A DNA stretch of 64,000 bases. Source: Dehalococcoidia bacterium (GTDB lineage Bacteria > Chloroflexota > Dehalococcoidia > Tepidiformales > Tepidiformaceae). The notes under the pieces are model-generated. The model was not told where the DNA came from, did not search any database, and saw only the letters and a list, made by a program, of their open reading frames with translations. Position 1 is the first letter of the stretch, and each line of letters starts with the position of its first letter. The stretch spans positions 99,240-163,239 of the forward strand of contig JAXLWZ010000004.1 in the NCBI GenBank assembly GCA_046328225.1, in the 5' to 3' direction. The translations under genes and the position numbers were made by a program. Shown here one piece after another: positions 1 through 64,000 of the stretch.

Positions 1-56
1 AGATCACCGGCGGCGCCGCCGATAACCCGCTGCGCGCCGTGGCGTACAACGGCTAG
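1..56 (+). CDS. 3' end of an unidentified upstream gene (partial, C-terminal 17 codons ...AVAYNG*)
   Basis: Open frame from the window edge to TAG at 54-56; too short to assign a product. Confidence 0.3.
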   Translation, partial: ITGGAADNPLRAVAYNG

Positions 57-68
57 CGGGAGGCCTCG

Positions 69-1928
69 TTGAACACCCAGAAGCAGATCATCCTCATCGT
101 CACGCTGTTCTTCGTCTTCGTCGGCAGCTGCGCGGCCTACGCCGTCATCGACCTGCCGATTCGCGCGCAAGACCAGACCGAGTGGCACCACTCCCAGTCT
201 ATCGAGCGCGGCGCCCTCCTCTTCGCGAACAACTGCCGCACCTGCCACGGCAACGTCGGCGAAGGCGGCGTGGGGCCGGCCCTCGATGCGACCAACCCGC
301 GGGACTTCCAGAACCAGGACCCGCTCGTCCTCAAGAACAACAAGGCCCTCCTCAAGCGCACCCTTTCCTGCGGCCGCGCCGGCACCCTCATGCCCGCCTG
401 GCTGAACACGAACGGCGGCGCCCTCAACGAGCGCCAGATCGACCACCTCATCGACCTCCTTACGTCACCCGTCGATGCGAAGTACGTCGATGAAGCCGGG
501 AATCCGACGAGTGAGGGCTGGTTCTATGCCCTCGAATTCGCCCATAACCTGAACCACGCGACGGCCATCTCCGTCGGCGGCGATACGCTCGGCACCATCG
601 CCAACGCCCACCTCCTCGGCATCGCCGAGTTGAGCGCGGCCAACGGCAACGTCGACCCGTACGCCATCATCGAGCGCGGCCAGAAGGTCACGCTTCCGCC
701 GACGCTGGCACATCCCAAGGGCCGCGAGTACCTCATCCGCAAGGACAACGAGACCCTCGCCAAGATCGCCGAAAGCCAGGCGGTCGGCGCCATCATCCTC
801 GCCGAGTTCAACGGCCTGCCTTACAAGTTCGATGAGAAGTCCGCCAAGCTGACCCTTCTCAACGAAAGCGGCCAGGAAGTCCCGGGACTCTTCCCCGGCG
901 ATACCCTCAAGCTCCCCGATAACTCGCGGTACGTCGTCAAGACCGGCGACACCATCGAGGCCATCGCGACCGCCCACGGGCTTCGCCCCGCCGACGTCTC
1001 CGGCAATGGCAACAACGCCAAGGCCCTCGGCACCACCAACCAGACCGAGGCCCTCGAAGGGGCGCGCAAGATCCGCGTGCCTTCGACGTACGTCGTCCAG
1101 CCGGGCGATTCCGTCGCCACCATCGCGACCAACCACGGCCTGACGCCCACGGACTTCCAGAGCCTCAACGGCCTCACCGCCGAGACCGTGCCCGGCGCCG
1201 GCCAGGAACTCAAGCTCGACGACGCCGCCACCTATCTGGTCCAGCCTGGCGACAACCTCGGCACCATCGCGGTCTCCCACAAGACCACGCCCGCCGACCT
1301 CGCCAAGCTGAACGGCATCCAGCTCACCGACCCGGTGACGCCGCAGGTCATCATCACGCTCCCGAAGGTCGACAAGTACGTCGTGAAGGGCCAGAGCCTC
1401 GACGACATCGCGAAGACCCTCTCGAATGTGACCGCCTCCGAACTCGGCGACGCGAACAGCGTGCCCGAGACGGCCGTCCTCCGCATCGGCCAGGGCCTCG
1501 TGCTCCCGACCGCCGCGCGGGGCAGCGCTCCGCCCGACGCCCGCAACCCCGGCACCGCCTGTGTCGAGCACGCCATCCCGGACGCGGTCTTCCAGACCCT
1601 CCCCGGCGTGGGCACGCCCCAGGCCCAGGTGTCGCCGCCGGCGGCACAGTCGAAGGACGTCACCATCACCAGCGGCGCCAACGACTTCACCGTCACCGCC
1701 GATGGCACCAAGTCCGACCTGAACAAGGGTGTCGTGGCCATCGCCAAGGGCACCGCGGTGAAGTTCGTGAACCAGGTGGGCATCCACACCATCACCGTGA
1801 ACGGCACGAAGGACGGCGCCGACTTCAAGGGCACCGACACCCGGACGCTCACCTTCAACAACGCGGGGACTTTCAAGATCACCTGCGACTTCCACCCCGC
1901 GATGCTCGCGACGATCTTCGTCCAGTAG
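69..1928 (+). CDS. Membrane-anchored c-type cytochrome fused to 4-5 LysM repeats and a C-terminal amicyanin-like cupredoxin domain
   Basis: TTG start with GGGAGG RBS at 58-63. N-terminal TM helix IILIVTLFFVFVG. Heme-binding CRTCH (CxxCH) with distal Met in GTLMPAW. Repeated LysM signatures (YVVKTGDTIEAIATAHGL, YVVQPGDSVATIATNHGLTP, YLVQPGDNLGTIAVSH...LAKLNGI, YVVKGQSLDDIAKTL). C-terminal type-1 Cu ligand pattern H...CDFHPAM (C-x2-H-x2-M as in amicyanin). Confidence 0.8.
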   Translation: MNTQKQIILIVTLFFVFVGSCAAYAVIDLPIRAQDQTEWHHSQSIERGALLFANNCRTCHGNVGEGGVGPALDATNPRDFQNQDPLVLKNNKALLKRTLSCGRAGTLMPAWLNTNGGALNERQIDHLIDLLTSPVDAKYVDEAGNPTSEGWFYALEFAHNLNHATAISVGGDTLGTIANAHLLGIAELSAANGNVDPYAIIERGQKVTLPPTLAHPKGREYLIRKDNETLAKIAESQAVGAIILAEFNGLPYKFDEKSAKLTLLNESGQEVPGLFPGDTLKLPDNSRYVVKTGDTIEAIATAHGLRPADVSGNGNNAKALGTTNQTEALEGARKIRVPSTYVVQPGDSVATIATNHGLTPTDFQSLNGLTAETVPGAGQELKLDDAATYLVQPGDNLGTIAVSHKTTPADLAKLNGIQLTDPVTPQVIITLPKVDKYVVKGQSLDDIAKTLSNVTASELGDANSVPETAVLRIGQGLVLPTAARGSAPPDARNPGTACVEHAIPDAVFQTLPGVGTPQAQVSPPAAQSKDVTITSGANDFTVTADGTKSDLNKGVVAIAKGTAVKFVNQVGIHTITVNGTKDGADFKGTDTRTLTFNNAGTFKITCDFHPAMLATIFVQ

Positions 1929-1955: not shown

Positions 1956-1990
1956 GAAGGGAGGCCGCAAGGCCTCCCTTCGCCGTTTCC
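1956..1990 (+). terminator. Putative intrinsic terminator after the cytochrome/LysM/cupredoxin gene
   Basis: GC hairpin gaagggaggcc-gcaa-ggcctcccttc followed by a weak T run (gccgtttcc). Confidence 0.4.
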
Positions 1991-2098: not shown

Positions 2099-2218
2099 AT
2101 GGCAGCGCAGACCGGCAAGCGGTACACGTGCCCCAAGTGCGGATCGGAATTCATCGTCACCAAGGGCGGCGATGGCGAGCTCATGTGCGGCGATACTCCG
2201 CTCGAGCTGAAGAAGTAA
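2099..2218 (+). CDS. 39-aa zinc-ribbon mini-protein (MAAQTGKRYTCPKCGSEFIVTKGGDGELMCGDTPLELKK)
   Basis: ATG with strong RBS; CPKC ... C..D Cys pattern; not in the ORF track (<60 aa) but clearly paralogous to the next ORF. Confidence 0.55.
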   Translation: MAAQTGKRYTCPKCGSEFIVTKGGDGELMCGDTPLELKK

Positions 2219-2232
2219 GGAGTACCACGACC

Positions 2233-2376
2233 ATGGCAGTGCAACTCGGCAAGCGCTACAAGGACGAGCAGACCGGCATCGAGCTCCTCGTCATCAAGCC
2301 CGGCAACTGCGACCTCAGCGTCAGCGGCCGCCCCATGGAGCTCATGCAGCCCAAGGTCCTTCCTTCGGCCGACTGA
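2233..2376 (+). CDS. 47-aa paralog of the preceding mini-protein with a degenerate zinc ribbon (MAVQLGKRYKDEQTGIELLVIKPGNCDLSVSG...)
   Basis: Same MAxQxGKRY...E(F/L)(I/L)V(T/I)K(G/P)G...L core, but the CxxC ligands are replaced (KDEQTG). In frame with track ORF 2011..2376. Confidence 0.5.
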   Translation: MAVQLGKRYKDEQTGIELLVIKPGNCDLSVSGRPMELMQPKVLPSAD

Positions 2377-5642: not shown

Positions 5643-6362
5643 ATGGCCGTCCCCGCCGTTCGCGCGCTCACCTTCGATGTCTTCGGCACCGTCGTCGATT
5701 GGCGCTCCAGCATCATCCGCGAAGTCGCCGCCACCGCCGCCGGTGCCGGCGTCAGCGGCGATTGGCCCGCCTTCGCCGACGAATGGCGCTACGACGGCTA
5801 CATCGCCGGCATCGGGCGCATCAACCGGGGCGAAGCGCCCATGGCCACGGCCGACGCCATCCACCGCGCGAAGCTCGACGAGCTGCTCCCCCGCTACGGC
5901 CTCGGCGCGCTCGATGAGGCCGCCCGCGACCACCTCAACCGCGCCTGGCACCGCCTCGACCCGTGGCCCGATTCCGCTGCCGGGCTCGCGCGCCTGCGCA
6001 CGGGCTACATTGTCTCCACGCTCTCGAACGGCAACGTCTCGCTGCTCGTGAACATGGCCAGGCATGCCGGGCTTACCTGGGATTGCATCCTCAGCGCCGA
6101 ACTCACGGGCGCGTTCAAGCCCATGCCCCGCTGCTACACCGAAGCGGCCCGCCTCCTCGGCTTCGCGCCGGGCGAGGTCATGATGGCCGCCGCCCACAAG
6201 GGCGATCTCCGCGCGGCCGCGAAAGCCGGCCTGCGCACCGCGTTCATCCCCCGCCCGCTCGAAGCCGGTCCGAATCGCGAGGTCGACCTCGCCCCGGAGG
6301 CGGAGTTCGATATCAATGCCGCCGACTTCCACGACCTGGCCACGCAGCTCGGCTGCGCCTGA
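5643..6362 (+). CDS. Haloacid dehalogenase type II (HAD superfamily hydrolase)
   Basis: N-terminal LTFDVFGTVVDW (DxxGT-type nucleophile motif) and the L-2-haloacid dehalogenase layout. Confidence 0.7.
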   Translation: MAVPAVRALTFDVFGTVVDWRSSIIREVAATAAGAGVSGDWPAFADEWRYDGYIAGIGRINRGEAPMATADAIHRAKLDELLPRYGLGALDEAARDHLNRAWHRLDPWPDSAAGLARLRTGYIVSTLSNGNVSLLVNMARHAGLTWDCILSAELTGAFKPMPRCYTEAARLLGFAPGEVMMAAAHKGDLRAAAKAGLRTAFIPRPLEAGPNREVDLAPEAEFDINAADFHDLATQLGCA

Positions 6363-6365
6363 GGG

Positions 6366-7115
6366 TCACGCCCCGCGCAGCCGCTCCGCGAGAAAGGCGA
6401 TGGCCGTGTCGGCGCACTCAGGCGGCGAATCCGCATGGAGCCCCGGGTACGCCGTGAACCGCTTGTCCTTCGTGCCCAGCATCCGGAACAGCCGCACCGT
6501 CCCCGTGAACGCGAACCGTTCGTCGTCCAGCATCGCGAAGAACTGCACGGGCACGGTCACGTTCGGGGCATCGGCGATGTGCCGCGGCACGATGTGGCCC
6601 CGCACCGCGCTTGACCCTTCGAGCCCGCAGAGCCCGAGCACGGCCGCCTTCACCAGCGCCTCCGCCGCCACGAACGGGAGCCCGAACATCGTCCCCATCG
6701 AGAGGCCCCAGTAGCCCACGCGCTCCGCATCGATTTCGTCCAGGGCCGAAAGCGCATCGAGCGTCGCCTGCCAGTCCGCCACCATCCGGTCGATTGGCCC
6801 GTTGCGCCACATCGCCCGGTAGAGGGTGTCGTCGTCCGTCGTGTTCGTGATCGCGCCGCGCTCGCCGTGTTCGATGCCATCGATGACCGCCGCCGCGAAC
6901 CCTTCGCGCCGCACCAGCAGGCCCGCCCGCGCCATGATTTTCGGGTCCTTCTTGTGCGAACGGCCCCCGTGCCCGACGAGCACGAGCGGCACCGGCCCGG
7001 GCGCCGCACCGTCCTTCGTCCACAGGTACCCGGGGAACCGGTCGCCATCCCGTTCGATGATGAAACGCCGTTCGCGCACGCCATCCGTGACCGTCGCGGC
7101 CCCATCCCATTCCAT
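6366..7115 (-). CDS. Alpha/beta hydrolase, dienelactone-hydrolase-like
   Basis: Nucleophile elbow GLSMG and dienelactone-hydrolase-like length; start taken at MEWDGAAT (the track ORF extends to 7226). Confidence 0.6.
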   Translation of the reverse strand: MEWDGAATVTDGVRERRFIIERDGDRFPGYLWTKDGAAPGPVPLVLVGHGGRSHKKDPKIMARAGLLVRREGFAAAVIDGIEHGERGAITNTTDDDTLYRAMWRNGPIDRMVADWQATLDALSALDEIDAERVGYWGLSMGTMFGLPFVAAEALVKAAVLGLCGLEGSSAVRGHIVPRHIADAPNVTVPVQFFAMLDDERFAFTGTVRLFRMLGTKDKRFTAYPGLHADSPPECADTAIAFLAERLRGA

Positions 7116-7192
7116 GCTCGAACCTCGCAGCAGTACCTTCGCGCCGCACTCTACGGGGGCGCCACCGCCGCGTCGACGCCGCCGCGCGATGG

Positions 7193-7672
7193 CTACCGCT
7201 CGATCGCCGGCGAACCCGCACGCCACACCAGGTGCCGCGGCCGCGACGTGCTCTCCCCTCGCGGCCCGTACGTCACCAGCAGCGCCGACTCGATATCGAA
7301 CTCGAAGAGCACATGGTCACGGCTATGCCCGCCGCTCGCGAGGAACGCAGCCTCGACCGCCCGCAGCAGCACCGCATCGTCGCGAGGACGGGCGGTGCCA
7401 GTGAGTGCGAGCTCGTCGTCGCGGTCCGGCATCCCCTGCGTGTGGATCGCGACACGCGGGTCACGCAGCAGGTCCCGCCGCTTCGGCCCGGGAATGATGA
7501 GCCCGTAGAGCCCGTCCCCGCGCTGGATCGGGCAGAACGGGTGCAGGCGCGGCCCGCCATCCGGCCGCACCGTCGCCAGGTATCCCAGCCCGATCCCGGC
7601 GAAGTACATGATCTCCCGCCCGCGCGCCGCCATCTCCGGCGCTTCCGCCGCGAAGCCTGCCCAGTTCGCCAT
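7193..7672 (-). CDS. Pyridoxamine 5'-phosphate oxidase (PPOX)-family FMN/F420-binding protein
   Basis: PPOX split-barrel-like sequence (YFAGIGLGYLATVRPDGGPRLHP...). Confidence 0.6.
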   Translation of the reverse strand: MANWAGFAAEAPEMAARGREIMYFAGIGLGYLATVRPDGGPRLHPFCPIQRGDGLYGLIIPGPKRRDLLRDPRVAIHTQGMPDRDDELALTGTARPRDDAVLLRAVEAAFLASGGHSRDHVLFEFDIESALLVTYGPRGESTSRPRHLVWRAGSPAIER

Positions 7673-7878
7673 CTCGAAGCCTCCTCACGTGATACGCACC
7701 GCAACGTTAATCCGCCCACTCTCTGCCCGCCCGCGCGATGCGATAGAATGGATCCACAACCACCCGGGATGTTGCCACTGTCGCGGACACGCATCATGTC
7801 AGGTTCGAACTTCCCCGGCGGCCTTCGCCAGCCGCGGATCCCGGTGTGTGCCAGTCCTTTCTCACGGTCCCTTTCACG

Positions 7879-18039: not shown

Positions 18040-18203
18040 TCGGGGGCTCCCCTTTCGTGGTGTGTGACCCGAGAGACTGTCCGGATGCGCCCCCCTCTGA
18101 AACCACAAACGGCGACGCCTGCGCGCCGCCGTCCGTTCACCCTCTCTTGATTCCAGAGAGCGCATCCATAGGCCCCGACACTAGTCCCCTCGATCCCGCC
18201 CTG

Positions 18204-19199
18204 TCAACGGCTTGCAGGAACTGCAAGATGGTCCCCTCGCCCCTCGCTTTTGCTCCCCGGAGCGAACCGGACCACCATTCCCGGCGCCGCCGCGACGGCC
18301 AGCCGCGAGCCCGCACGCGGCGCCGGCACGCCCGCATCCAATCGCACACGCACCACCGATTCGCCGATTCGCCCCAGGACCTCGACTCCGCCGGGCAGCG
18401 GCACGGCGCCCTCCACCGCCAGCGTGAACGTCACCCCTCCCGTGCCGACCGAGAGCGCGTCCGGCCACACCGCGACGACGCCGCTCTCGGTCTCCACGAC
18501 GGCAAACCCGATCGCGGCCGCCGTCTCCGCGTCCGGCGGCGAAGCCAGCACCTCCGCGACCGGACCCTGCGCGGCGAGCCTGCCGCCCACCAGCACCACG
18601 AGGTCATCCGCGAGTGCCGCCGCCGGGCGCGCGTCGCGCATCGCCAGCACGACGGTGCCACCCCACGACCGCAACACCCCCGGGAGGGCGACGAGCAGCT
18701 CCGCCTGCGCATCGCCGTCCAGGCCCGCGAACGGCTCGTCGATGAGCGTCACCGGCGCGCGTCGTGCGAGTGCCCGCGCGAGGTGCACCCGCTGCATCTC
18801 GCCCCCCGAAAGCTCCCGCACGTCCCGCTCCATGAGTGTCCCGATGCCGATCGCCGCCGCCAGCGCCTCCGTTCGCGCCCGCGCGGCCTCGCCGGTCCGG
18901 CCGCGAAAGCGCCGGCGGCCCTCCAGCTGGTCGCGCACGGTCCCGCGCCCGCGCTCGGCCGGCTGGAACGCGGTCGCGATCCGCTCCTGCATCGCGCGCA
19001 CCGCCGCTTCGCCCCCGATGCGCACCTGCCCCGCGGACGGCCGTTCGCCGCCGGCGATGAGCCGCAAGAGCGCCGACTTCCCCGCCCCGTTCGCGCCAAC
19101 GACAGCCGTCACCCGCCCGCCCGCGATGGTCAGCTCCGGGACCGAGAGCACCGTAGTCCCGCCGCGCTCGAGGCGGACCCCCTGCAACCGCACGTCCAT
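18204..19199 (-). CDS. ABC transporter ATP-binding protein with C-terminal TOBE-like domain; no permease adjacent
   Basis: Walker A GANGAGKS, ABC signature LSGGEMQRV, Walker B LIDEPFAGLD; C-terminal regulatory beta domain. Confidence 0.8.
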   Translation of the reverse strand: MDVRLQGVRLERGGTTVLSVPELTIAGGRVTAVVGANGAGKSALLRLIAGGERPSAGQVRIGGEAAVRAMQERIATAFQPAERGRGTVRDQLEGRRRFRGRTGEAARARTEALAAAIGIGTLMERDVRELSGGEMQRVHLARALARRAPVTLIDEPFAGLDGDAQAELLVALPGVLRSWGGTVVLAMRDARPAAALADDLVVLVGGRLAAQGPVAEVLASPPDAETAAAIGFAVVETESGVVAVWPDALSVGTGGVTFTLAVEGAVPLPGGVEVLGRIGESVVRVRLDAGVPAPRAGSRLAVAAAPGMVVRFAPGSKSEGRGDHLAVPASR

Positions 19200-19263
19200 C
19201 GGCGAATTATCGCGCCAGCCGCGCCTTCGCGACCGCTCCCCGCCGCGCTATGATGCCGCCGCG

Positions 19264-20070
19264 ATGAGCGGCCTGTTCACCATCACCCACAGCATGGTCC
19301 AGTCCTACGAACGCTGCCGGAAGCAGTACTGGTTCACCTACCTCAGCGGCCTCGAACGGCCCCCCGACGAAGTGGTCACGCCCGCCGGCCTCATCGGCAA
19401 CGGCGTCCACCGCGCGATGAAGACCCTCTGCCTCACCGGCGACCCGGAGGACGGCGCCCGCGAACTCGATGCTTACCTGCGCATGCCCGCCCACGATTGC
19501 GCCGGCCCCGGCACCGATGCCTTCGATCGTGCCATGGCCCTCTACGCGCGCGGCTGCGAAGCCCACGCCTCCATGGCTAGCGAAGACCGCTGGCCCGAGC
19601 TCGATACCTGGGTCCCCGTCCCGAGCCGCGCCGTCACCCTCCGCGCCCGCATCGATCGCGCTGACCGCTTCGCCGGCGGCCACTGGCAGGTCATCGATTG
19701 GAAGACCGGCCACGACCTCGACGAGGTCACCGATGCCCAGCTCGATCTTGGGCACGTCGCCGTTCGCACATCCTTCCACCTTCCCGGCGATGCGATCGTG
19801 CGCGCGGTGGGATGGAATCTGCGTTCCGGACAGGTGCGCGAGCGCGTGCTTCGCAGCACCGATGCTGCCGCCACCGTGAAGCGCTACATCGGTATCGCCT
19901 ACCGCATCCAGGCCACGCAGGACTTCCCCGCGACACCGAACCGCGCCTGCGGCTTCTGCGCCTGGCGCCCCATGTGTCCCGATTCCGAACCCCCGGCCGT
20001 GAGCGAATGGGACTGGAGCGACGACGACCTCCCCGGCGACGATGCCCCCACCGGCGACCCGTCCGCGTAG
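19264..20070 (+). CDS. PD-(D/E)XK nuclease, Cas4/RecB-like with Fe-S cysteine cluster, standalone
   Basis: N-terminal Cys (ERC), motifs RIDRAD...VIDWKTG (D...D/ExK), QxxxY-like KRYIGIAYR, C-terminal CGFCAWRPMC. Confidence 0.65.
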   Translation: MSGLFTITHSMVQSYERCRKQYWFTYLSGLERPPDEVVTPAGLIGNGVHRAMKTLCLTGDPEDGARELDAYLRMPAHDCAGPGTDAFDRAMALYARGCEAHASMASEDRWPELDTWVPVPSRAVTLRARIDRADRFAGGHWQVIDWKTGHDLDEVTDAQLDLGHVAVRTSFHLPGDAIVRAVGWNLRSGQVRERVLRSTDAAATVKRYIGIAYRIQATQDFPATPNRACGFCAWRPMCPDSEPPAVSEWDWSDDDLPGDDAPTGDPSA

Positions 20071-34088: not shown

Positions 34089-35066
34089 CTACAGCGCGAG
34101 CTGCATCACCGCCGTCGCCCGGATGATCGTGTCCACGTCGAGCACGCTCGTCGCCCGGGCTGCCTCGACGTGCACATGCGAACCCTGCGCGCAGGACGAG
34201 TCGTACTCCGGGCCGCTTTCCGGTCCCATCCGGCCCACCACCGTCCCCGGCGCGATGACGTCATCGACGCGCACCAGCACGGGGTCCATGTGCGCGTATA
34301 GCACCCACGCATCCGATGGCCGCCAGGCGCCACCCGCGGCCCGGTACTCGATGCGAATCTGCACCTTGTTCCCGCCGTCGCTCAGCTGACCCGAGCGGCA
34401 GGCCGGCCCGATGATGCGGACCACACCGCGCACCTCGGTCCCCTCGGGCGCGGCAACGTTGAACGCGATCGACTGGCCGATGCTGGGCGCATCGATGACA
34501 TCGAGATCCATCGACCGCGAACCCCCGTACGGCGTGTGGTGTCCCTGGCTCGATGACGACGTCACCCGCGTGTCGCCGCCGAACACGATCGGGTTCAGGA
34601 TTTCGATGGTTCCCGCGAGCACGCCCGCGCCGGGCAACCGCAGCACCTGGTTCACGCTGATGATGAACGGCTCACGGATGCCGTTCGCCGCCGCGATGTC
34701 CCGCCAGTTCAGCCCCAGCCGCGTGCCGATCGCGCTCAGGCTGTCACCGGGCATCACCGTGTAGAAGGTCGCGCTCGCCGCCGTCCCCGATCGGTCTTCC
34801 GGCGGCTTGCGGTCGTGGCCGGGCACATCGATGTCGAGGCCCGGCGGCTCATCGTTCACCGCCCGCGCGCCATCCACGGTGATGTAGTCGCCGTGCACGA
34901 AGCCAGGCCCGAGCGGCGATTCCACCCGGCGCCAATCGCCATCGCGCGCGGTGATCGTCACCACCTGGCCCATCGCCAGGAGCCCCAGGATTTCGGTCGC
35001 CGTCGAAGGTCCACGGCGCAGCCGCAGGCCCTCCTCCGGGATCACGGTCGCCGGCCGGTTGCCCAT
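34089..35066 (-). CDS. M23-family peptidoglycan metalloendopeptidase with SH3b and LysM domains
   Basis: SH3b-like GLRLRRGPSTATEILGLLAMGQVVTI; LysM YTVMPGDSLSAIGTRLGLNWRDIAAANGI; M23 motifs H..D (GHHTPYGGSRSMDLD) and HxH (SHVHVE). Confidence 0.7.
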   Translation of the reverse strand: MGNRPATVIPEEGLRLRRGPSTATEILGLLAMGQVVTITARDGDWRRVESPLGPGFVHGDYITVDGARAVNDEPPGLDIDVPGHDRKPPEDRSGTAASATFYTVMPGDSLSAIGTRLGLNWRDIAAANGIREPFIISVNQVLRLPGAGVLAGTIEILNPIVFGGDTRVTSSSSQGHHTPYGGSRSMDLDVIDAPSIGQSIAFNVAAPEGTEVRGVVRIIGPACRSGQLSDGGNKVQIRIEYRAAGGAWRPSDAWVLYAHMDPVLVRVDDVIAPGTVVGRMGPESGPEYDSSCAQGSHVHVEAARATSVLDVDTIIRATAVMQLAL

Positions 35067-35174
35067 CGCATGCCTCCAGGATGAGTGGCACCCGGGGCGG
35101 GGTGTCGTGCGAGCGATTGTAGCCGCGCCCGCGAGCCGTAATGCCCCCACATGGCACTCCCCGCGCGAATCCGC

Positions 35175-59518: not shown

Positions 59519-60988
59519 CTACGGACGACCGGAACGGTTGAGGCTGTCCGCCGCCGCGAGTACGGGGTCGCGCCGCGCGGCCGACATGTCGTCCATCTCC
59601 AGCTGGACGTTGATGGGATAGACGCCGGTGAAGCACGCGTTGCAGAGGTCGTTCGCGCTTTGACCGGTTGCGGCGTTCAGCCCTTCCACGCTCAGGTAGC
59701 CCAGCGAGTCCGCGCCGATGTGCGCGCAAATCTCATCCAACGTCTTGTTCGCCGCGATCAGTTCGGACTTCGTCGCCATGTCCACGCCGAAGAAGCAGGG
59801 CGAGATGATCGGCGGCGATGCGAAGCGCATGTGCACCTCGGTCGCGCCCGCCTTCCGCAAAAGCTGGACCACGTGCGGCGTCGTCGTCCCCCGCACGAGC
59901 GAGTCATCCACGACCACGACGCGCTTGCCGCGCAGGACATCGCCGAGCGCGTTGAACTTCAGGCTGACGCCCGCCGCGCGAATGCGCTGGTCCGGCTGGA
60001 TGAACGTCCGCCCGACGTACCGGTTCTTGACGAGGCCCTCGCGGTAGGGGATGCCCGCCTCGCGCGCGTAGCCGATGGCCGCCGGGATCGCCGAATCCGG
60101 CACCCCAATGACGAGGTCCGCCTCCACGTGGTGCTCGCGCGCCAGCTGCGCACCCATCTCTTCCCGCACCGGGTAGATGAGCTTGCCCATGAACTGGCTG
60201 TCGGGTCGCGCGAAGTAGACGAGCTCGAAGGTGCAGGCCGCCCGCTTCGCCAGCGGCGCCACCGGCGAGAAGCTGCGCATCCCGCTGCCGTCGATTTGCA
60301 CGACCTCGCCAGGGCGCACTTCGCGTTCCATTTGCACTCCGAGGTGCTCCAGCGCGCACGATTCCGACGCCACCACCCAGCCGCCGTTCCCCAGCCGCCC
60401 GAAGCAGAGCGGCCGCACGCCCAGCGGGTCGCGAACGCCGAAGAGCACGTCCTTGGTCATGATGACGAGGCTGTACGCGCCCTCGATGCGGCGCATCACG
60501 TAGTGGAACTTCTCTTCCCAGGTTCCCGCCGGCGCCATCGCCAGCAGGTGCGCGATGAGTTCGCTGTCGGCGGTGGATTCGAACCGCACGCCCTGCGCCT
60601 CGAGGTCCTCGCGCAGCACGTCCGCGTTCGTCAGGTTGCCATTGTGTGCGAGCGCGATCTGCTCGCCCGTCTCCCGGTCGCGAACGAGGATCGGCTGCGC
60701 GTTGCAGGCCAGCGAACCGCCCGCCGTGCTGTAGCGCGTGTGCCCGATCGCGATCTGGCCCCGGAGGAACGCGAGATCCTCCTCGTCGAACACCTGCGAG
60801 ACCAGCCCCATCCCCGTCCGCAGACCGAAGCTTTCGCTCCCGTTGCTGGTGGCGATGCCGGCACTTTCCTGCCCGCGGTGTTGGAGGGCGTAGAGCCCAT
60901 AGAAGGTGAGCCGCGCGACATCCTCACCGGGGCCAAACACCCCGAACACGCCGCAGGCTTCTCGCGGATTATCGTCTTCAGGAATCAC
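59519..60988 (-). CDS. purF: Amidophosphoribosyltransferase PurF
   Basis: Class II Gln amidotransferase with catalytic Cys after an 11-aa propeptide (VIPEDDNPREA|CGVFGVFG); PRTase motif VVVVDDSLVRGTT; C-terminal Cys residues consistent with a 4Fe-4S cluster; GTG start (the track ORF extends to 61084). Confidence 0.85.
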   Translation of the reverse strand: MIPEDDNPREACGVFGVFGPGEDVARLTFYGLYALQHRGQESAGIATSNGSESFGLRTGMGLVSQVFDEEDLAFLRGQIAIGHTRYSTAGGSLACNAQPILVRDRETGEQIALAHNGNLTNADVLREDLEAQGVRFESTADSELIAHLLAMAPAGTWEEKFHYVMRRIEGAYSLVIMTKDVLFGVRDPLGVRPLCFGRLGNGGWVVASESCALEHLGVQMEREVRPGEVVQIDGSGMRSFSPVAPLAKRAACTFELVYFARPDSQFMGKLIYPVREEMGAQLAREHHVEADLVIGVPDSAIPAAIGYAREAGIPYREGLVKNRYVGRTFIQPDQRIRAAGVSLKFNALGDVLRGKRVVVVDDSLVRGTTTPHVVQLLRKAGATEVHMRFASPPIISPCFFGVDMATKSELIAANKTLDEICAHIGADSLGYLSVEGLNAATGQSANDLCNACFTGVYPINVQLEMDDMSAARRDPVLAAADSLNRSGRP

Positions 60989-61208
60989 GCCGTGGCACCC
61001 CTCCAAGCGCGTGACCGCTTCGCACCCTGCCAGTATAGGCGACCCGCGATCAGGGCGGCAAAGCCGCCGCATAAGAACTTTCACTAGGTGCCAATCCCGA
61101 TACCCCCTGTGCGCACCTTGCCACCGCGCCGACCGCGCGCCCGCGAGGGCAAACCAAAGGCCCGCCAGTGCGGCGGGCCTCCGGGAAGTTCGAACACGCC
61201 GTCCGCGC

Positions 61209-62144
61209 CTAGGCCGTGATCTTGTCGACCTCGGCCATCTCCTCGCCGGTGAGCCGCCATTCCAGCGCCGCTACGTTCTGCGTGATCTGCTCGGGCGAAG
61301 TCGCCCCCGCGATCACGCTCGGCACGTACTTCTTGCTCGCCAGCCAGCCCATCGCCAGGTCCAGGATCGAATGCCCGCGCGTCTGCGCGAACGTCGAGAG
61401 CTTCTCCACGAGGTCGAAGTTCTTGTCGCTCAGCATGCGGCCGGCGCGGGGGCCCCAGGCCGCGAGGCGCGTGCCCGCCGGCGGCTCCTGCCCCTGTACG
61501 TATTTGCCCGTGAGCACCCCGCTCGCCAGCGGGAAGTACGGCAGCAGCCCGACGTTGTACGCCTCCAGTGCCGGCACGAGGTCGCCTTCGACCCGGCGGT
61601 TCAGCAGGCTGTATTCGTTCTGCGCCGACACGAACGGCGCCACGCGCTCGTACTTCGCGATCGCCTGCGCTTCGGCCGTCTGCCAGCCCGCGAAGTTCGA
61701 ATGCCCGATGTAGCGCACCTTGCCCGCGCGCACGAGGTCTTCCAGCGCGCGCATCGTCTCGTCCAGCGGCGTGAGCGCGTCCGGCCGGTGAATCTGGTAC
61801 AGGTCGATGTAGTCCGTGCCCAGCCGCTTCAGGCTCGCCTCGCACGCCGCGATCACGTACCGCCGCGACCCGCCCGCCTTGTACGGCCCTTCGCCCATCG
61901 GGCTGCCGAACTTCGTCGCCACCACGACATCCTGGCGGCGGGCACCCAGCGCCTTGCCCAGCATCACCTCCGACTGGCCGCCGCCGTACACGTCCGCCGT
62001 GTCGAACAGCGTCACGCCCAGCTGGATCGCCTTGTCCACGACCGCCTGCGTCTTCTCCTGGTCGAGCCGCATCCCGAAGTTGTTGCAGCCAAGGCCCGCG
62101 ACGGAGACGCGCAGCCCGGAAAACCCGACGTTCCTGAATTCCAT
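61209..62144 (-). CDS. Aldo/keto reductase
   Basis: AKR catalytic tetrad context (DTADVYGGGQSE, ...K..., IGHSNF). Confidence 0.85.
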   Translation of the reverse strand: MEFRNVGFSGLRVSVAGLGCNNFGMRLDQEKTQAVVDKAIQLGVTLFDTADVYGGGQSEVMLGKALGARRQDVVVATKFGSPMGEGPYKAGGSRRYVIAACEASLKRLGTDYIDLYQIHRPDALTPLDETMRALEDLVRAGKVRYIGHSNFAGWQTAEAQAIAKYERVAPFVSAQNEYSLLNRRVEGDLVPALEAYNVGLLPYFPLASGVLTGKYVQGQEPPAGTRLAAWGPRAGRMLSDKNFDLVEKLSTFAQTRGHSILDLAMGWLASKKYVPSVIAGATSPEQITQNVAALEWRLTGEEMAEVDKITA

Positions 62145-62192
62145 CCCATTCCTCCCGTGTTCGTGCGGAGGAGTATACGAGCGATAAGCGGC

Positions 62193-63956
62193 TTATCGCT
62201 CGCCAGTGCCGGGGCCGGCGAACCACCACGGTGCCGCGCCGGGCGACGCCTCGCCCCACTGCCGTTCGAACCACTCGAACGTCGCCGCGTCGCCCGGGTG
62301 CAGGTCGATCACCCAGTACGGGTCGAGCGCGTTCCAGCCCGCCACCAGCCCGTCAAACACGAGCAGGCTGCCATCGTCGTGCCGCCAACGAAGGCGAAAG
62401 ACCACGCGCGCATCCGCCCGCCGCGCGCCACGCTTCTCCCACGCCGCGATCAGGTCGCGAATCGCCGCCGTGCCGTTCGGTGTCCGGCGCACCGCCGTCA
62501 CCGCCTGTTCGAACGCCCGGCCGGGACCACCCGTCACCGTCGGGTTCAGGAACGGCTTCAGCGGCGCCGGCACGAGCGTCAGCACCACCTCTTCCCAGTT
62601 CTCGACGTGCATCCGGAATGCCTCGGACGTCACCAGCTCCAGCAGATGCGGCCCGCCCTCGGTTTCATGGAACGGCGGCAGCGGAAATGGGTCGAAGCGC
62701 CGTGCCGCCGTGTTCCCGCCGATCAGCCGGCAGTCCGCATCGAACACGAACAGCGGCCAGGGCAGCCGTTCCGCATCCCGTTCCAGCTCGGCCGCCGAGA
62801 GGTAGTTCAGCGAGGCATTGGGGTGGTAGGCCACATCCAGGCCCGACATCCAGCGCGCAATCCACGAGGGCTCCGGGCTCATCCCCAGGTCCTCGAGGAT
62901 GAAGTTCATCGTCGGGCCGTCCATCTGCAGCGTCCGCACGATGGTCATGACGGTGTCGCGCCGGGGACGCCGGCGGCCCTTCTCGAGGCTGTACACCGCG
63001 TTCGCGGACAGCCCCACGCGCGCGCCGAACTCCGCCTGCGAAAGCTTCACCCGCTCCCGGAACGCACGCAACGCCTCGTTCCATCGCACCGGCAGGTCCG
63101 GCTCCCAGTGCTCGCGCGAATGCGCCTCGCGCGTGCCCATCGTCTTTTCCACCCAGCGCCACGTTTCCGCGTTCGCCGGGTGCCAGTCGAACGCGTAGAG
63201 CGAGTCGAAATCGCTCCACGCGCGGAACACGGTCTCGAAGCGCAGCACGGTACCGTCAGCCACGCGCCACTTCACGGGGTGGCTGTTCCGGGCCCCTTCG
63301 CGCCACACCGGCACCGTCTGGTAGAGCGTCAGCAGGTCGCCGAAGGCCTCCGGGAAGCGCGTCCCGAGCTCCATCATCATCTGCAGCAGCGGCGCCGCGC
63401 CCTGCCCCGCTTCGCCCGTCTCCGAATCCGGCGGCCGCGAAAGGTGCGCCATCTTCCAGAACGACACCTGCCGCCCGATGAGGTCCATCCAGTTCAGCAG
63501 GTGCTTGCGAAAGTGCGCCGTCGCCGCGAGCCACACCACATTCCGCTCCCCGAGCGTTTCGAAGTGCTCGGCGAAGTTCAGCTCCGCCACCGCCTCCGCC
63601 ACCGAGTTCCAGGCGAGGATGTCGTTGTAGTCGTCCAGCAGCAGGAACGACCAGGGGTACGCCTCCATCTCGTCCGCGTAGGGCCGCAGGCCGATGCGCC
63701 GCCGCCGCCGCAGCTCGCCCGCGGGATCGTTCGGCTCCGGCTCGAAGCCCGCGTCGGCCAGCACCGGGCGCCGCTCCGCGAGCGGCATCTCCAGGCGCTC
63801 GCAGTAGCGCAGCAGGTTCTCCCGTTTTGGGTGCCGCCCGCCCGTTTCCCACGCTTCGATCGTCGCCTTGCCGATGCCCGTCGCCTTCGCCGCCTGCAGC
63901 CGCGACCAGCCCATCCCGTCCCGCGCCCGCCGGATCGCCTCGCGCCATTCGTCCAC
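62193..63956 (-). CDS. Protein with two tandem XRE-type HTH + ~200-aa unknown-domain modules (Scr1/DUF5753-like regulator duplicated in one chain)
   Basis: HTH 1 GWSRLQAAKATGIGKATIEAWETGGRHPKRENLLRYCERLEM; HTH 2 VKLSQAEFGARVGLSANAVYSLEKGRRRPRRDTVMTIVRTLQMD; each followed by a Trp-rich domain with shared motifs (NxAxxxF, WxxVxxxL). Confidence 0.6.
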   Translation of the reverse strand: MDEWREAIRRARDGMGWSRLQAAKATGIGKATIEAWETGGRHPKRENLLRYCERLEMPLAERRPVLADAGFEPEPNDPAGELRRRRRIGLRPYADEMEAYPWSFLLLDDYNDILAWNSVAEAVAELNFAEHFETLGERNVVWLAATAHFRKHLLNWMDLIGRQVSFWKMAHLSRPPDSETGEAGQGAAPLLQMMMELGTRFPEAFGDLLTLYQTVPVWREGARNSHPVKWRVADGTVLRFETVFRAWSDFDSLYAFDWHPANAETWRWVEKTMGTREAHSREHWEPDLPVRWNEALRAFRERVKLSQAEFGARVGLSANAVYSLEKGRRRPRRDTVMTIVRTLQMDGPTMNFILEDLGMSPEPSWIARWMSGLDVAYHPNASLNYLSAAELERDAERLPWPLFVFDADCRLIGGNTAARRFDPFPLPPFHETEGGPHLLELVTSEAFRMHVENWEEVVLTLVPAPLKPFLNPTVTGGPGRAFEQAVTAVRRTPNGTAAIRDLIAAWEKRGARRADARVVFRLRWRHDDGSLLVFDGLVAGWNALDPYWVIDLHPGDAATFEWFERQWGEASPGAAPWWFAGPGTGER

Positions 63957-64000
63957 GCTCGCCCTCCAGATCAGCCGAACGCTTCGTACAGATGGCGATC

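What the first reader, a model, noticed from the sequence alone, without database searches (positions are those of the whole stretch)
69..1928. Cytochrome c + LysM repeats + amicyanin-like cupredoxin in one membrane-anchored protein
A single 619-aa ORF combines three parts. First, an N-terminal TM anchor and a mono-heme cytochrome c domain (CRTCH with a distal Met). Second, four to five LysM peptidoglycan-binding repeats. Third, a C-terminal type-1 copper site (His ... C-D-F-H-P-A-M) of the amicyanin/pseudoazurin kind. The architecture suggests a wall-tethered two-centre electron-transfer protein. I do not recognise this domain combination as a described family.
Basis: partly seen in the sequence, partly recalled or inferred. 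Interest (0 to 1): 0.6.

Follow-up and report, generated by a model that had tools for sequence, protein, structure and literature searches.

The report
Cytochrome bc subunit with LysM and copper domains
This gene encodes the haem-c subunit of a respiratory cytochrome bc (b6-type) complex in wall-bearing Chloroflexota. The subunit also carries its own blue-copper electron carrier and an inserted array of six cell-wall-binding LysM modules, a combination I could not find described in the literature I could search.

Summary
ORF 69..1928 (+) encodes 619 aa with five parts:
- an N-terminal membrane anchor;
- a class I cytochrome c domain (CRTCH, axial Met108);
- six LysM-like repeats (Pfam detects five);
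- a Pro/Ala-rich linker;

All haem and copper ligands are invariant or nearly so in 73 species-level homologues.

The window begins inside the last 17 codons of a Rieske gene. In 70 of 70 related loci with enough upstream DNA, this gene is the fourth of a cyt b6 / enlarged subunit IV / Rieske / this-gene operon.

LysM-less relatives (280-530 aa, one of 772 aa) sit in the same operon slot in other Dehalococcoidia. They share the anchor and haem module and end in one or two cupredoxins (30 representatives) or a second haem-c domain (11). The LysM array therefore looks like an insertion into a loop bounded by a conserved Cys pair (Cys101/Cys498).

Most likely function: the electron exit of complex III, running Rieske to haem c to a tethered copper domain to an oxidase, held to peptidoglycan in a monoderm. 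No description was found in the searchable literature. I rate it a new variant of a known kind.

The parts
1..56 (+). 3' end of the upstream Rieske iron-sulfur subunit gene (last 17 codons, ITGGAADNPLRAVAYNG, stop TAG at 54-56). The rest of the operon lies outside the window.
   Evidence: The translation matches the C-terminus of the Rieske protein of the 92%-identical locus L006. The Rieske gene lies directly upstream in all related loci.
58..63 (+). GGGAGG ribosome-binding site, 5 nt before the TTG start
   Evidence: Read from the sequence.
69..1928 (+). Complete ORF, 619 aa plus stop: cytochrome c - 6x LysM - cupredoxin subunit
69..158 (+). Residues 1-30: N-terminal signal-anchor or TM helix (MNTQKQ + hydrophobic 7-28). 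It also contains a lipobox-like V-G-S-C with invariant Cys21.
   Evidence: Hydropathy. Cys21 is invariant in 73/73 homologues. LysM-less relatives often lack this Cys, so a TM anchor is the ancestral reading.
159..563 (+). Residues 31-165: class I cytochrome c domain. Features: CRTCH (res 56-60, nt 234-248), axial Met108 (nt 390-392), conserved Cys101 (nt 369-371).
   Evidence: Pfam PF13442/PF00034 above cut-off. C56, C59, H60 are 73/73 and M108 is 72/73. Similar to CcoP and actinobacterial QcrC haem domains.
564..698 (+). LysM repeat 1 (res 166-210)
   Evidence: beta-alpha-alpha-beta pattern in the AF2 model.
726..917 (+). LysM repeat 2 (res 220-283). Atypical (KDNETLAKIA), with a 19-residue insertion.
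   Evidence: conserved block.
927..1082 (+). LysM repeat 3 (res 287-338)
1086..1220 (+). LysM repeat 4 (res 340-384), the best Pfam LysM match. Absent in the 526-530 aa variants.
1230..1364 (+). LysM repeat 5 (res 388-432). Absent in the 526-530 aa variants.
1374..1508 (+). LysM repeat 6 (res 436-480). Atypical (KGQSLDDIA), the best-conserved repeat, retained in every short variant read.
1509..1583 (+). Residues 481-505: conserved motif (W)GSAPPDxxNPGTAC498V. Cys498 (nt 1560-1562) is the proposed disulfide partner of Cys101.
   Evidence: C101 and C498 are invariant in 73/73 homologues. Exactly one equivalent Cys pair (CGR ... CGQ) occurs in 41/41 complete LysM-less relatives. The disulfide itself is inferred.
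1584..1652 (+). Residues 506-528: Pro/Ala/Gln-rich flexible linker
   Evidence: The only low-confidence stretch of the AF2 model, pLDDT 51-63 over residues 491-520. Poorly conserved, 0.49.
1653..1925 (+). Residues 529-619: type-1 copper cupredoxin domain. Ligands: His573 (nt 1785-1787), Cys606 (1884-1886), His609 (1893-1895), Met612 (1902-1904). The loop is C-x2-H-x2-M.
1956..1981 (+). Perfect 11-bp GC-rich hairpin with a GCAA loop, 28 nt after the stop codon. Probable end of the operon transcript.
   Evidence: MFE -29.3 kcal/mol for 1951-1995. The consensus scan did not call it, because there is no T-run.

Best explanation
The protein is the c-type cytochrome subunit, the electron-exit module, of a b6-type Rieske/cytochrome b complex (complex III) of Tepidiformales-type Chloroflexota. 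These are monoderm aerobes with a peptidoglycan wall.

Proposed path:
1. Quinol is oxidised at cytochrome b6 / subunit IV.
2. The Rieske cluster reduces the membrane-anchored haem c domain (CxxCH, Met108).
3. The haem reduces the type-1 copper domain, which hangs on a flexible linker of about 25 residues.
4. The copper domain swings to a terminal oxidase, or another acceptor, and delivers the electron.

No diffusible carrier is then needed, which suits a cell with no outer membrane to retain one.

The six LysM modules are an insertion into a loop between the end of the haem domain and a conserved Cys motif. The loop is probably closed by a Cys101-Cys498 disulfide. The modules most likely bind peptidoglycan and hold the periplasmic head of the complex against the wall.

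Shown: the domains, the ligand conservation, the operon position, and the interchangeability of the C-terminal redox domain and of the loop insert among relatives.

Inferred: stable association with the complex, the direction and partner of electron transfer, the disulfide, and peptidoglycan binding.
For: (1) Domains and ligands.

(2) Operon. The window starts in the Rieske tail. In Tepidiforma flava and a groundwater MAG the order is cyt b (250 aa), PetD-like (295 aa), Rieske (about 200 aa), then this gene, with gaps of about 15-25 nt. The same order holds in 70/70 loci with enough upstream DNA. No other c-type cytochrome is encoded in the operon. The cyt b is b6-type with a YCLGG Cys. A hairpin follows the gene and the downstream genes are housekeeping.

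(3) Relatives found with residues 1-165 share the MNTxKQ anchor and haem module. They end in one or two cupredoxins (30 representatives) or a second haem-c domain (11 representatives). Four of them, checked directly, occupy the same fourth operon slot. A copper domain that is interchangeable with a second haem domain argues for an electron-relay role, as in the dihaem QcrC of actinobacteria.

(4) Both ends of the window protein are homologous to a 280-aa LysM-less relative: haem module E 1e-32, cupredoxin hhalign probability 95.7%. The LysM array therefore looks like an insert. LysM number varies from 4 to 6 while both ends are kept.

(5) Cultured Tepidiforma are strictly aerobic and oxidase-positive. 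They have a cytoplasmic membrane, a peptidoglycan layer of about 20 nm and an S-layer, with no outer membrane (PMC10284905). The window also encodes an SH3-LysM-M23 wall hydrolase.
Against: - No biochemical data exist for any member. Co-transcription does not prove stable assembly into the complex.
- No terminal oxidase gene lies in the window, so the acceptor is unknown.
- AF2 places the Cys498 motif with only moderate confidence (pLDDT about 63). Coordinates could not be inspected, so neither the disulfide nor a haem-copper docking geometry is verified.
- Two of the six LysM repeats (2 and 6) lack the canonical GDT(L/I) motif and may not bind glycan.
- The single-sequence Pfam cupredoxin score is below cut-off.
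Confidence: 0.7

Rival explanations
1. It is a separate membrane-tethered electron shuttle, like Bacillus cytochrome c550/c551 or Chloroflexus auracyanin. On this reading it is merely co-transcribed with the bc genes, diffuses in the membrane plane, and is not a stable subunit.
For: Only one N-terminal anchor, which may even be a lipid anchor: the lipobox pattern is present and Cys21 is invariant. There is weak similarity to c550/c551 models. One related operon (L088) has an additional free-standing cupredoxin gene downstream.
Against: The operon encodes no other acceptor for the Rieske centre. Linkage is invariant across at least 70 species with tiny intergenic gaps, and also in distant LysM-less relatives. 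Wall-binding LysM modules would hinder lateral diffusion.
Confidence: 0.15
2. The LysM array does not bind the wall. It is a semi-rigid spacer or scaffold that sets the reach of the head domains or packs against other subunits. The loop is simply a permissive insertion site.
For: The same loop holds an unrelated, unannotated repeat, or nothing, in relatives. The two best-conserved repeats (2 and 6) are the least LysM-like. AF2 gives pTM 0.64 for the whole chain, which suggests some fixed packing.
Against: Four repeats keep the canonical xGD(T/S/N)(L/I/V)xxIA motif and score strongly with Pfam LysM. LysM forms were found only in the Tepidiformales-type tier, whose cultured members have peptidoglycan. 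Repeat number varies between 4 and 6, which a precise ruler would not tolerate.
Confidence: 0.25
3. The copper domain is an electron entry point or serves a non-oxidase partner. Examples would be a periplasmic dehydrogenase, as with amicyanin, or nitrite/N2O reductases. The module would then connect the bc complex to another pathway rather than to a terminal oxidase.
For: The ligand loop C-x2-H-x2-M is that of amicyanin. The closest solved sequence relative is the C-terminal cupredoxin of a Nitrosopumilus NirK-like multicopper oxidase. Related wastewater genera are predicted to use nitrate as well as O2 (PMC10746286).
Against: The amicyanin model score is far below cut-off (16 vs 110 bits). 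There is no mau or nir gene context. Cultured Tepidiforma are strict aerobes. The position behind a Rieske centre implies outflow of electrons.
Confidence: 0.1

Closest known systems
Actinobacterial QcrC (dihaem cytochrome cc subunit of the bcc complex, as in the CIII2CIV2 supercomplexes of Mycobacterium and Corynebacterium)
   Different: Here the second centre is type-1 copper, not haem. The anchor is N-terminal. There is a LysM insertion. The cyt b is split b6-type. The NCBIfam QcrC model scores 25.6 against a cut-off of 200.
Cytochrome b6f with plastocyanin; Firmicutes and heliobacterial b6c complexes
   Different: Plastocyanin is a separate soluble protein and cytochrome f has an unrelated fold. 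In Bacillus the haem c domain is fused to subunit IV. Here subunit IV is enlarged to about 295 aa and the carrier is covalently fused.
Auracyanins of Chloroflexus/Roseiflexus; sulfocyanin SoxE of the Sulfolobus SoxM supercomplex
   Same: These are membrane-tethered blue copper proteins that take electrons from a quinol-oxidising complex in organisms of the same phylum (auracyanin), or as an integral part of a Rieske/cyt b-oxidase supercomplex (SoxE). One relative (P0240) weakly matches the SoxE Pfam model. This comparison otherwise rests on my own knowledge of these systems.
   Different: Auracyanin is a separate protein working with alternative complex III. SoxE replaces cytochrome c rather than being fused to one. 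Neither has LysM modules.
Subunit II of caa3-type cytochrome c oxidase
   Same: One membrane-anchored polypeptide combines a cupredoxin fold with a class I cytochrome c (Foldseek hit 2yev_B).
   Different: The caa3 copper site is binuclear CuA, the domain order is reversed, and the protein belongs to the oxidase. Here the site is mononuclear His/Cys/His/Met.
Amicyanin
   Different: Not an orthologue: TIGR02657 scores 16 bits against a cut-off of 110. There is no methylamine dehydrogenase context, and here it is a domain of a larger protein.
LysM wall-binding modules of peptidoglycan hydrolases (for example Thermus thermophilus NlpC/P60, DipM, MltD)
   Same: Tandem LysM repeats with 25-36% identity to solved LysM pairs.
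   Different: In those proteins LysM targets a hydrolase to the wall. Here it is inserted into a respiratory redox subunit.

Membership tests
Class I c-type cytochrome (PF00034 / PF13442) | CxxCH haem-attachment motif | tested here: met
   CRTCH at residues 56-60. C56, C59 and H60 are invariant in 40/40 and 73/73 homologues.
Class I c-type cytochrome (PF00034 / PF13442) | Distal Met axial ligand in the conserved G-x-MP loop | tested here: met
   Met108 in GTLMPAW is conserved in 72/73 homologues. It aligns to the MPA motif of CcoP haem domains.
Class I c-type cytochrome (PF00034 / PF13442) | Profile score above the curated cut-off | tested here: met
   29.0 bits vs 27 (PF13442) and 28.9 vs 21.3 (PF00034).
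Class I c-type cytochrome (PF00034 / PF13442) | Covalently bound haem in the mature protein | not testable with these tools
   Needs haem staining or mass spectrometry.
LysM domain (PF01476) | Profile match and beta-alpha-alpha-beta fold | tested here: met
   E 3.6e-42 with five stretches. Six repeats align internally. The AF2 secondary structure fits. Foldseek hits solved LysM pairs 4uz2 and 4s3j.
LysM domain (PF01476) | Binding of peptidoglycan or GlcNAc polymers | not testable with these tools
   Inferred only. The host clade has peptidoglycan (PMC10284905).
Type-1 (blue) copper cupredoxin | Greek-key beta-sandwich cupredoxin fold | tested here: met
Type-1 (blue) copper cupredoxin | Ligand set His ... 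Cys-xn-His-xm-Met in canonical positions | tested here: met
   H573, C606, H609 and M612 align to amicyanin H53, C92, H95 and M98. They are conserved in 72/73 homologues, with Met replaced by Gln once.
Type-1 (blue) copper cupredoxin | Pfam Cupredoxin_1 / Copper-bind score above cut-off | tested here: not met
   The single sequence scores 14.8 bits vs 27. A family profile does reach solved cupredoxins at E 1.3e-9 to 4e-6, and LysM-less relatives pass the cut-off.
Type-1 (blue) copper cupredoxin | Ligand side chains clustered around one copper; copper bound; 600 nm band | not testable with these tools
Spectroscopy is needed.
Amicyanin (TIGR02657) | Equivalog score and methylamine dehydrogenase context | tested here: not met
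   16 bits vs cut-off 110.2. There are no mau genes nearby.
Rieske/cytochrome b (bc/b6c-type) complex, c-type subunit | Encoded in one operon with cytochrome b, subunit IV and the Rieske protein | tested here: met
   The Rieske tail lies at window 1-56. The full four-gene order is seen, in 70/70 loci, and in LysM-less relatives.
Rieske/cytochrome b (bc/b6c-type) complex, c-type subunit | Physical association with the complex and reduction by the Rieske centre | not testable with these tools
   Needs purification or a structure.
Cytochrome c1 (PF02167) / cytochrome f | Homology to the canonical c1 or f subunit | tested here: not met
   Neither model appears among the Pfam hits at E up to 1. This is therefore an analogue, not a homologue.
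Actinobacterial QcrC (NF050122) | Curated model score | tested here: not met
   25.6 bits vs cut-off 200; only residues 7-71 match.
Bacterial lipoprotein | Lipobox [LVI..][ASTG][GAS]-C after a short hydrophobic region | tested here: inconclusive
   F-V-G-S-C21 fits, and Cys21 is invariant in the LysM family. Most LysM-less relatives have no Cys there, and AF2 draws one continuous helix over residues 3-55.

The most novel reading that the evidence does not exclude
The LysM array physically staples respiratory complex III to the peptidoglycan sacculus. Alternatively, it threads a redox-active head into the wall of about 20 nm. In these monoderm Chloroflexota the wall would then organise the respiratory chain. 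It could fix bc-oxidase supercomplexes in place, or let the copper domain reach partners beyond the membrane surface. The Cys-bounded loop would be a general 'plug-in' site where different lineages install different envelope-binding modules: LysM here, an undescribed repeat elsewhere.
Probability: 0.15. Interest if true: 0.85.

Novelty: new variant of a known kind. Interest (0 to 1): 0.6.

Why it matters
Cytochrome bc complexes are among the best-studied energy converters. Their electron-exit subunit is known to differ between lineages: c1, f, dihaem cc, and subunit IV-c fusions.

This would add a form in which the haem subunit carries its own blue-copper carrier. In effect, a cytochrome-f-like function and a plastocyanin-like function sit on one chain. 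In one order, it also carries a wall-binding array.

Three consequences follow.
- It suggests how monoderm bacteria without an outer membrane avoid losing a soluble carrier.
- It offers a natural fused haem/copper pair for studying tethered inter-domain electron transfer.
- It raises the testable idea that a respiratory complex is anchored to peptidoglycan.

The family is abundant in soil, groundwater, hot-spring and activated-sludge Chloroflexota. It is present in cultured Tepidiforma species, so it can be studied experimentally.

Tried and rejected
- **Amicyanin, pseudoazurin, QcrC and cytochrome c1/f membership.** Tested and not met.
- **Foldseek against afdb50.** The library was not available.
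- **Consensus terminator scan.** It found nothing after the gene. Direct folding shows a strong hairpin without a T-run.
- **Motif search of the whole window for haem-copper oxidase, CuA, further CxxCH or type-1 copper proteins.** No oxidase was found. The only other motif matches are a C..H..M in the ORF 18172-20067 and a CxxCH in an open reading stretch at 60903-63998, neither examined further. The acceptor cannot be named from this window.
- **Six literature searches** **and three papers**. No description of the protein was found. Subscription-only papers are not covered, so absence is not proven.
- **Lipoprotein versus TM anchor.** Unresolved.
- **Cys498-x2-His501 as an extra metal site.** Rejected, because His501 is not conserved.
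- **Copper-site geometry and the Cys101-Cys498 distance.** Not measurable, because AF2 coordinates are not returned.
- **Odd taxon labels on a few homologues** (Hyphomicrobiales, Gemmatimonadales). I regard these as binning or labelling noise. The loci carry the same operon and about 95% identical cyt b.
Full report
**1. The observation**

The ORF at 69..1928 (+) exists and encodes 619 aa from a TTG start. A GGGAGG ribosome-binding site lies 5 nt upstream. All homologues start at the same MNTQKQ residue.

Pfam finds LysM (E 3.6e-42, five stretches) and a class I cytochrome c domain at residues 44-131, above both curated cut-offs. The single sequence gives only a sub-threshold Cupredoxin_1 match (14.8 bits vs 27). 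NCBIfam gives a sub-threshold amicyanin match (16 vs 110 bits).

The protein has one strongly hydrophobic segment (residues 3-31) and one CxxCH (CRTCH, residues 56-60). It has six cysteines: 21, 56, 59, 101, 498 and 606. Internal alignment shows six LysM-like repeats at 166-210, 220-283, 287-338, 340-384, 388-432 and 436-480. Repeats 2 and 6 are atypical.

**2. The copper domain**

A profile of the C-terminal 92 residues from 27 homologues (A2) matches solved cupredoxins by sequence:
- the C-terminal cupredoxin of a Nitrosopumilus multicopper oxidase (9cck), E 1.3e-9;
- amicyanin, E 4e-6 to 5e-5;
- plastocyanins, E about 1e-3.

The alignment places His573, Cys606, His609 and Met612 on amicyanin His53, Cys92, His95 and Met98.

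The spatial clustering of the ligands could not be measured, because coordinates are not returned.

**3. Conservation**

There are 637 hits at E <= 1e-3, and the 120 listed are near-full-length homologues (>= 48% identity, ~600-640 aa). Most are unannotated or named only 'LysM peptidoglycan-binding domain-containing protein'. They include Tepidiforma flava.

A scan of one genome per species found 123 relatives. Nearly all are labelled Dehalococcoidia, Tepidiformaceae or Chloroflexota. The closest matches are two unnamed Dehalococcoidia MAGs (92-93%); the closest named organism is Ca. Amarobacillus elongatus at 83%.

In 73 complete sequences from these loci:
- Cys21, Cys56, Cys59, His60, Cys101 and Cys498 are invariant;
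- Met108 is kept in 72;
- the copper ligands His573, Cys606 and His609 are kept in 72;
- Met612 is kept in 71, with one Gln.

The haem domain (0.72), the Cys498 motif (0.70), the cupredoxin (0.65) and LysM6 (0.64) are better conserved than LysM1-5 (0.54-0.56) and the linker (0.49).

Length variants of 579 aa and 526-530 aa have lost or merged LysM repeats but keep both ends and repeat 6.

**4.

The first 56 bases of the window encode ITGGAADNPLRAVAYNG-stop. This is the C-terminus of the Rieske protein of the 92%-identical locus L006.

In T. flava and in a groundwater MAG, the gene is the fourth of a tight operon:
- cytochrome b (250 aa, PF00033; b6-like, with the YCLGG cysteine typical of haem ci-containing b6);
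- a PetD-like protein (about 295 aa, weak PF00032, five to six hydrophobic segments);
- a Rieske protein (about 200 aa, b6f PetC-like, CPHLGC...CPCHGS);
- this gene.

tblastn shows the same order in every one of the 70 loci that have enough upstream DNA.

An 11-bp GC hairpin follows the stop codon. The larger downstream genes are housekeeping: DJC28_CD, YqeY and a 7TM-HD receptor. No other c-type cytochrome is encoded in the operon.

**5. A wider family**

I searched residues 1-165 against 1.84 billion representatives. This gave 19 hits below 1e-30, and 375 hits below 1e-10. The 18 best (E <= 1e-36) are the LysM family and its fragments; the 19th is an unrelated multihaem cytochrome.

Besides unrelated multihaem cytochromes, there is a second tier of proteins that match from residue 1 (38-48% identity, 280-530 aa, one of 772 aa). 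Their sequences show the following layout:
- the same MNTxKQ anchor and haem module;
- a variable loop that is empty, or filled with an unannotated repeat (V-x-RG-xx-GT-x-A-xx-H, no Pfam match);
- a conserved Cys (mostly CGQ);
- a Pro/Ala/Thr-rich linker;
- one cupredoxin, two cupredoxins, or a second CxxCH domain.

Of 41 complete representatives, 30 end in cupredoxin(s) and 11 in a second haem domain. Apart from metal-binding cysteines and an optional N-terminal Cys, all 41 have exactly one CGR cysteine (the Cys101 equivalent) and exactly one post-loop cysteine (the Cys498 equivalent). Two have one further pair inside the cupredoxin.

Four such proteins were looked up, and all are the fourth gene of the same cyt b / PetD-like / Rieske operon.

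The window protein is homologous to a 280-aa member at both ends. The haem module gives E 1e-32, and the cupredoxin gives hhalign probability 95.7%. The LysM array therefore looks like a lineage-specific insertion into a pre-existing cyt c-cupredoxin subunit.

**6. Mechanism**

Shown:
- the domains, their ligands and their conservation;
- the operon position;
- the modular exchange of the terminal redox domain and of the loop content.

Inferred:
- (a) The haem domain accepts electrons from the Rieske centre, because it is the only candidate in the operon.
- (b) The copper domain, on a linker of about 25 disordered residues, shuttles electrons onward. Its interchangeability with a second haem domain parallels the dihaem QcrC of actinobacteria.
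- (c) Cys101 and Cys498 form a disulfide that closes the insertion loop and pins the start of the linker to the haem domain.
- (d) The LysM modules bind peptidoglycan.

Point (d) fits the biology of the clade. Tepidiforma are strictly aerobic, oxidase-positive monoderms. They have a 7-nm membrane and a 40-nm periplasm containing a peptidoglycan layer of about 20 nm, plus an S-layer. Peptidoglycan has been lost in many other Dehalococcoidia orders (PMC10284905). The window itself also encodes an SH3-LysM-M23 wall hydrolase at 34092-35174 (-).

The acceptor is unknown, since no oxidase gene lies in the window.

**7. Rivals**

- A co-transcribed but independent tethered shuttle. The single anchor, which is possibly a lipid anchor, is compatible with this. 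The invariant linkage and the lack of any other Rieske acceptor argue against it.
- LysM as a spacer or scaffold rather than a wall binder. The loop tolerates other inserts, and the best-conserved repeats are the least canonical. However, four repeats are canonical, and LysM forms were seen only in the Tepidiformales-type tier.
- The copper domain serving another partner, or electron entry. Only the amicyanin-like loop and the NirK-like nearest relative support this. There is no supporting gene context.

**8. Comparison and novelty**

In function this resembles dihaem QcrC, b6f plus plastocyanin, ACIII plus auracyanin, and SoxE in the SoxM supercomplex. In composition it resembles caa3 subunit II.

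It is not a member of the c1, f, QcrC or amicyanin families, since those curated models are not met.

Six searches of the held literature, plus a review of bc-complex diversity, gave no description of a cyt c-cupredoxin bc subunit in Chloroflexota or of LysM in a respiratory subunit. The library lacks most subscription journals, so this is absence of evidence only.

I rate it a new variant of a known kind. It is a real, widespread and conserved subunit architecture that is annotated only generically. It has cultured hosts available for testing.

Noticed in passing
window 2099-2218 (+) and 2233-2376 (+): Two tandem small ORFs lie right after the operon. The first is a 39-aa desulforedoxin-N-like protein with four Cys (MAAQTGKRYTCPKCGSEF...). 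The second is a 47-aa paralogue that has lost the Cys (MAVQLGKRYKDEQTG...PKVLPSAD). The same pair follows the bc operon in L003 and L089. One copy follows in L088, and the two are fused in T. flava L002. This holds in both LysM and LysM-less lineages, so the ORFs may be functionally linked to the complex.
   Followed up: partly
L005-L084, cyt b gene about 2.3 kb upstream of the match (e.g. L006 3692-4441): The cytochrome b of the operon is 92-100% identical in amino acids across species whose c-LysM-copper subunit is only 41-59% identical. That is an unusually strong constraint on cyt b. It also carries the YCLGG cysteine of haem-ci-type b6.
   Followed up: partly
L002 8488-9375 and equivalents: The subunit IV (PetD)-like protein is about 295 aa with five to six hydrophobic segments, about twice the size of PetD. 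Only residues 57-114 match PF00032.
   Followed up: no
proteins P0166, P0180, P0202, P0213, P0223, P0240, P0268 (relatives, not in the window): LysM-less relatives carry one to several copies of a repeat (roughly LLRID-E...V..V....V-RG--GT-A--H--GA-V). It sits in the same loop where the window protein has LysM modules. Pfam finds nothing there. This may be an undescribed extracytoplasmic repeat domain.
   Followed up: partly
L065 (match 6001-7875) and protein P0202: These are natural variants with Gln in place of the axial Met of the copper site (CDFHPEQ, CDFHPLEQ), as in stellacyanin-type sites. L065 is also very acidic and has an acidic C-terminal tail.
   Followed up: no
protein P0135 (643 aa): A LysM-containing family member with two tandem cupredoxin domains.
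   Followed up: no
window 1956-1981 (+): A perfect 11-bp GC hairpin with a GCAA tetraloop follows the stop codon (MFE -29.3 kcal/mol for 1951-1995). It has no T-run, so the consensus terminator scan missed it.
   Followed up: yes
window 34092-35174 (-): An SH3 - LysM - Peptidase_M23 protein, a peptidoglycan hydrolase. It is consistent with a peptidoglycan-containing envelope in this organism.
   Followed up: partly
L052 and L083 (matches from 6001): In these two MAG assemblies the orthologue appears truncated or frameshifted (570 and 422 aa, with nonsense tails). I suspect assembly indels rather than biology.
   Followed up: no
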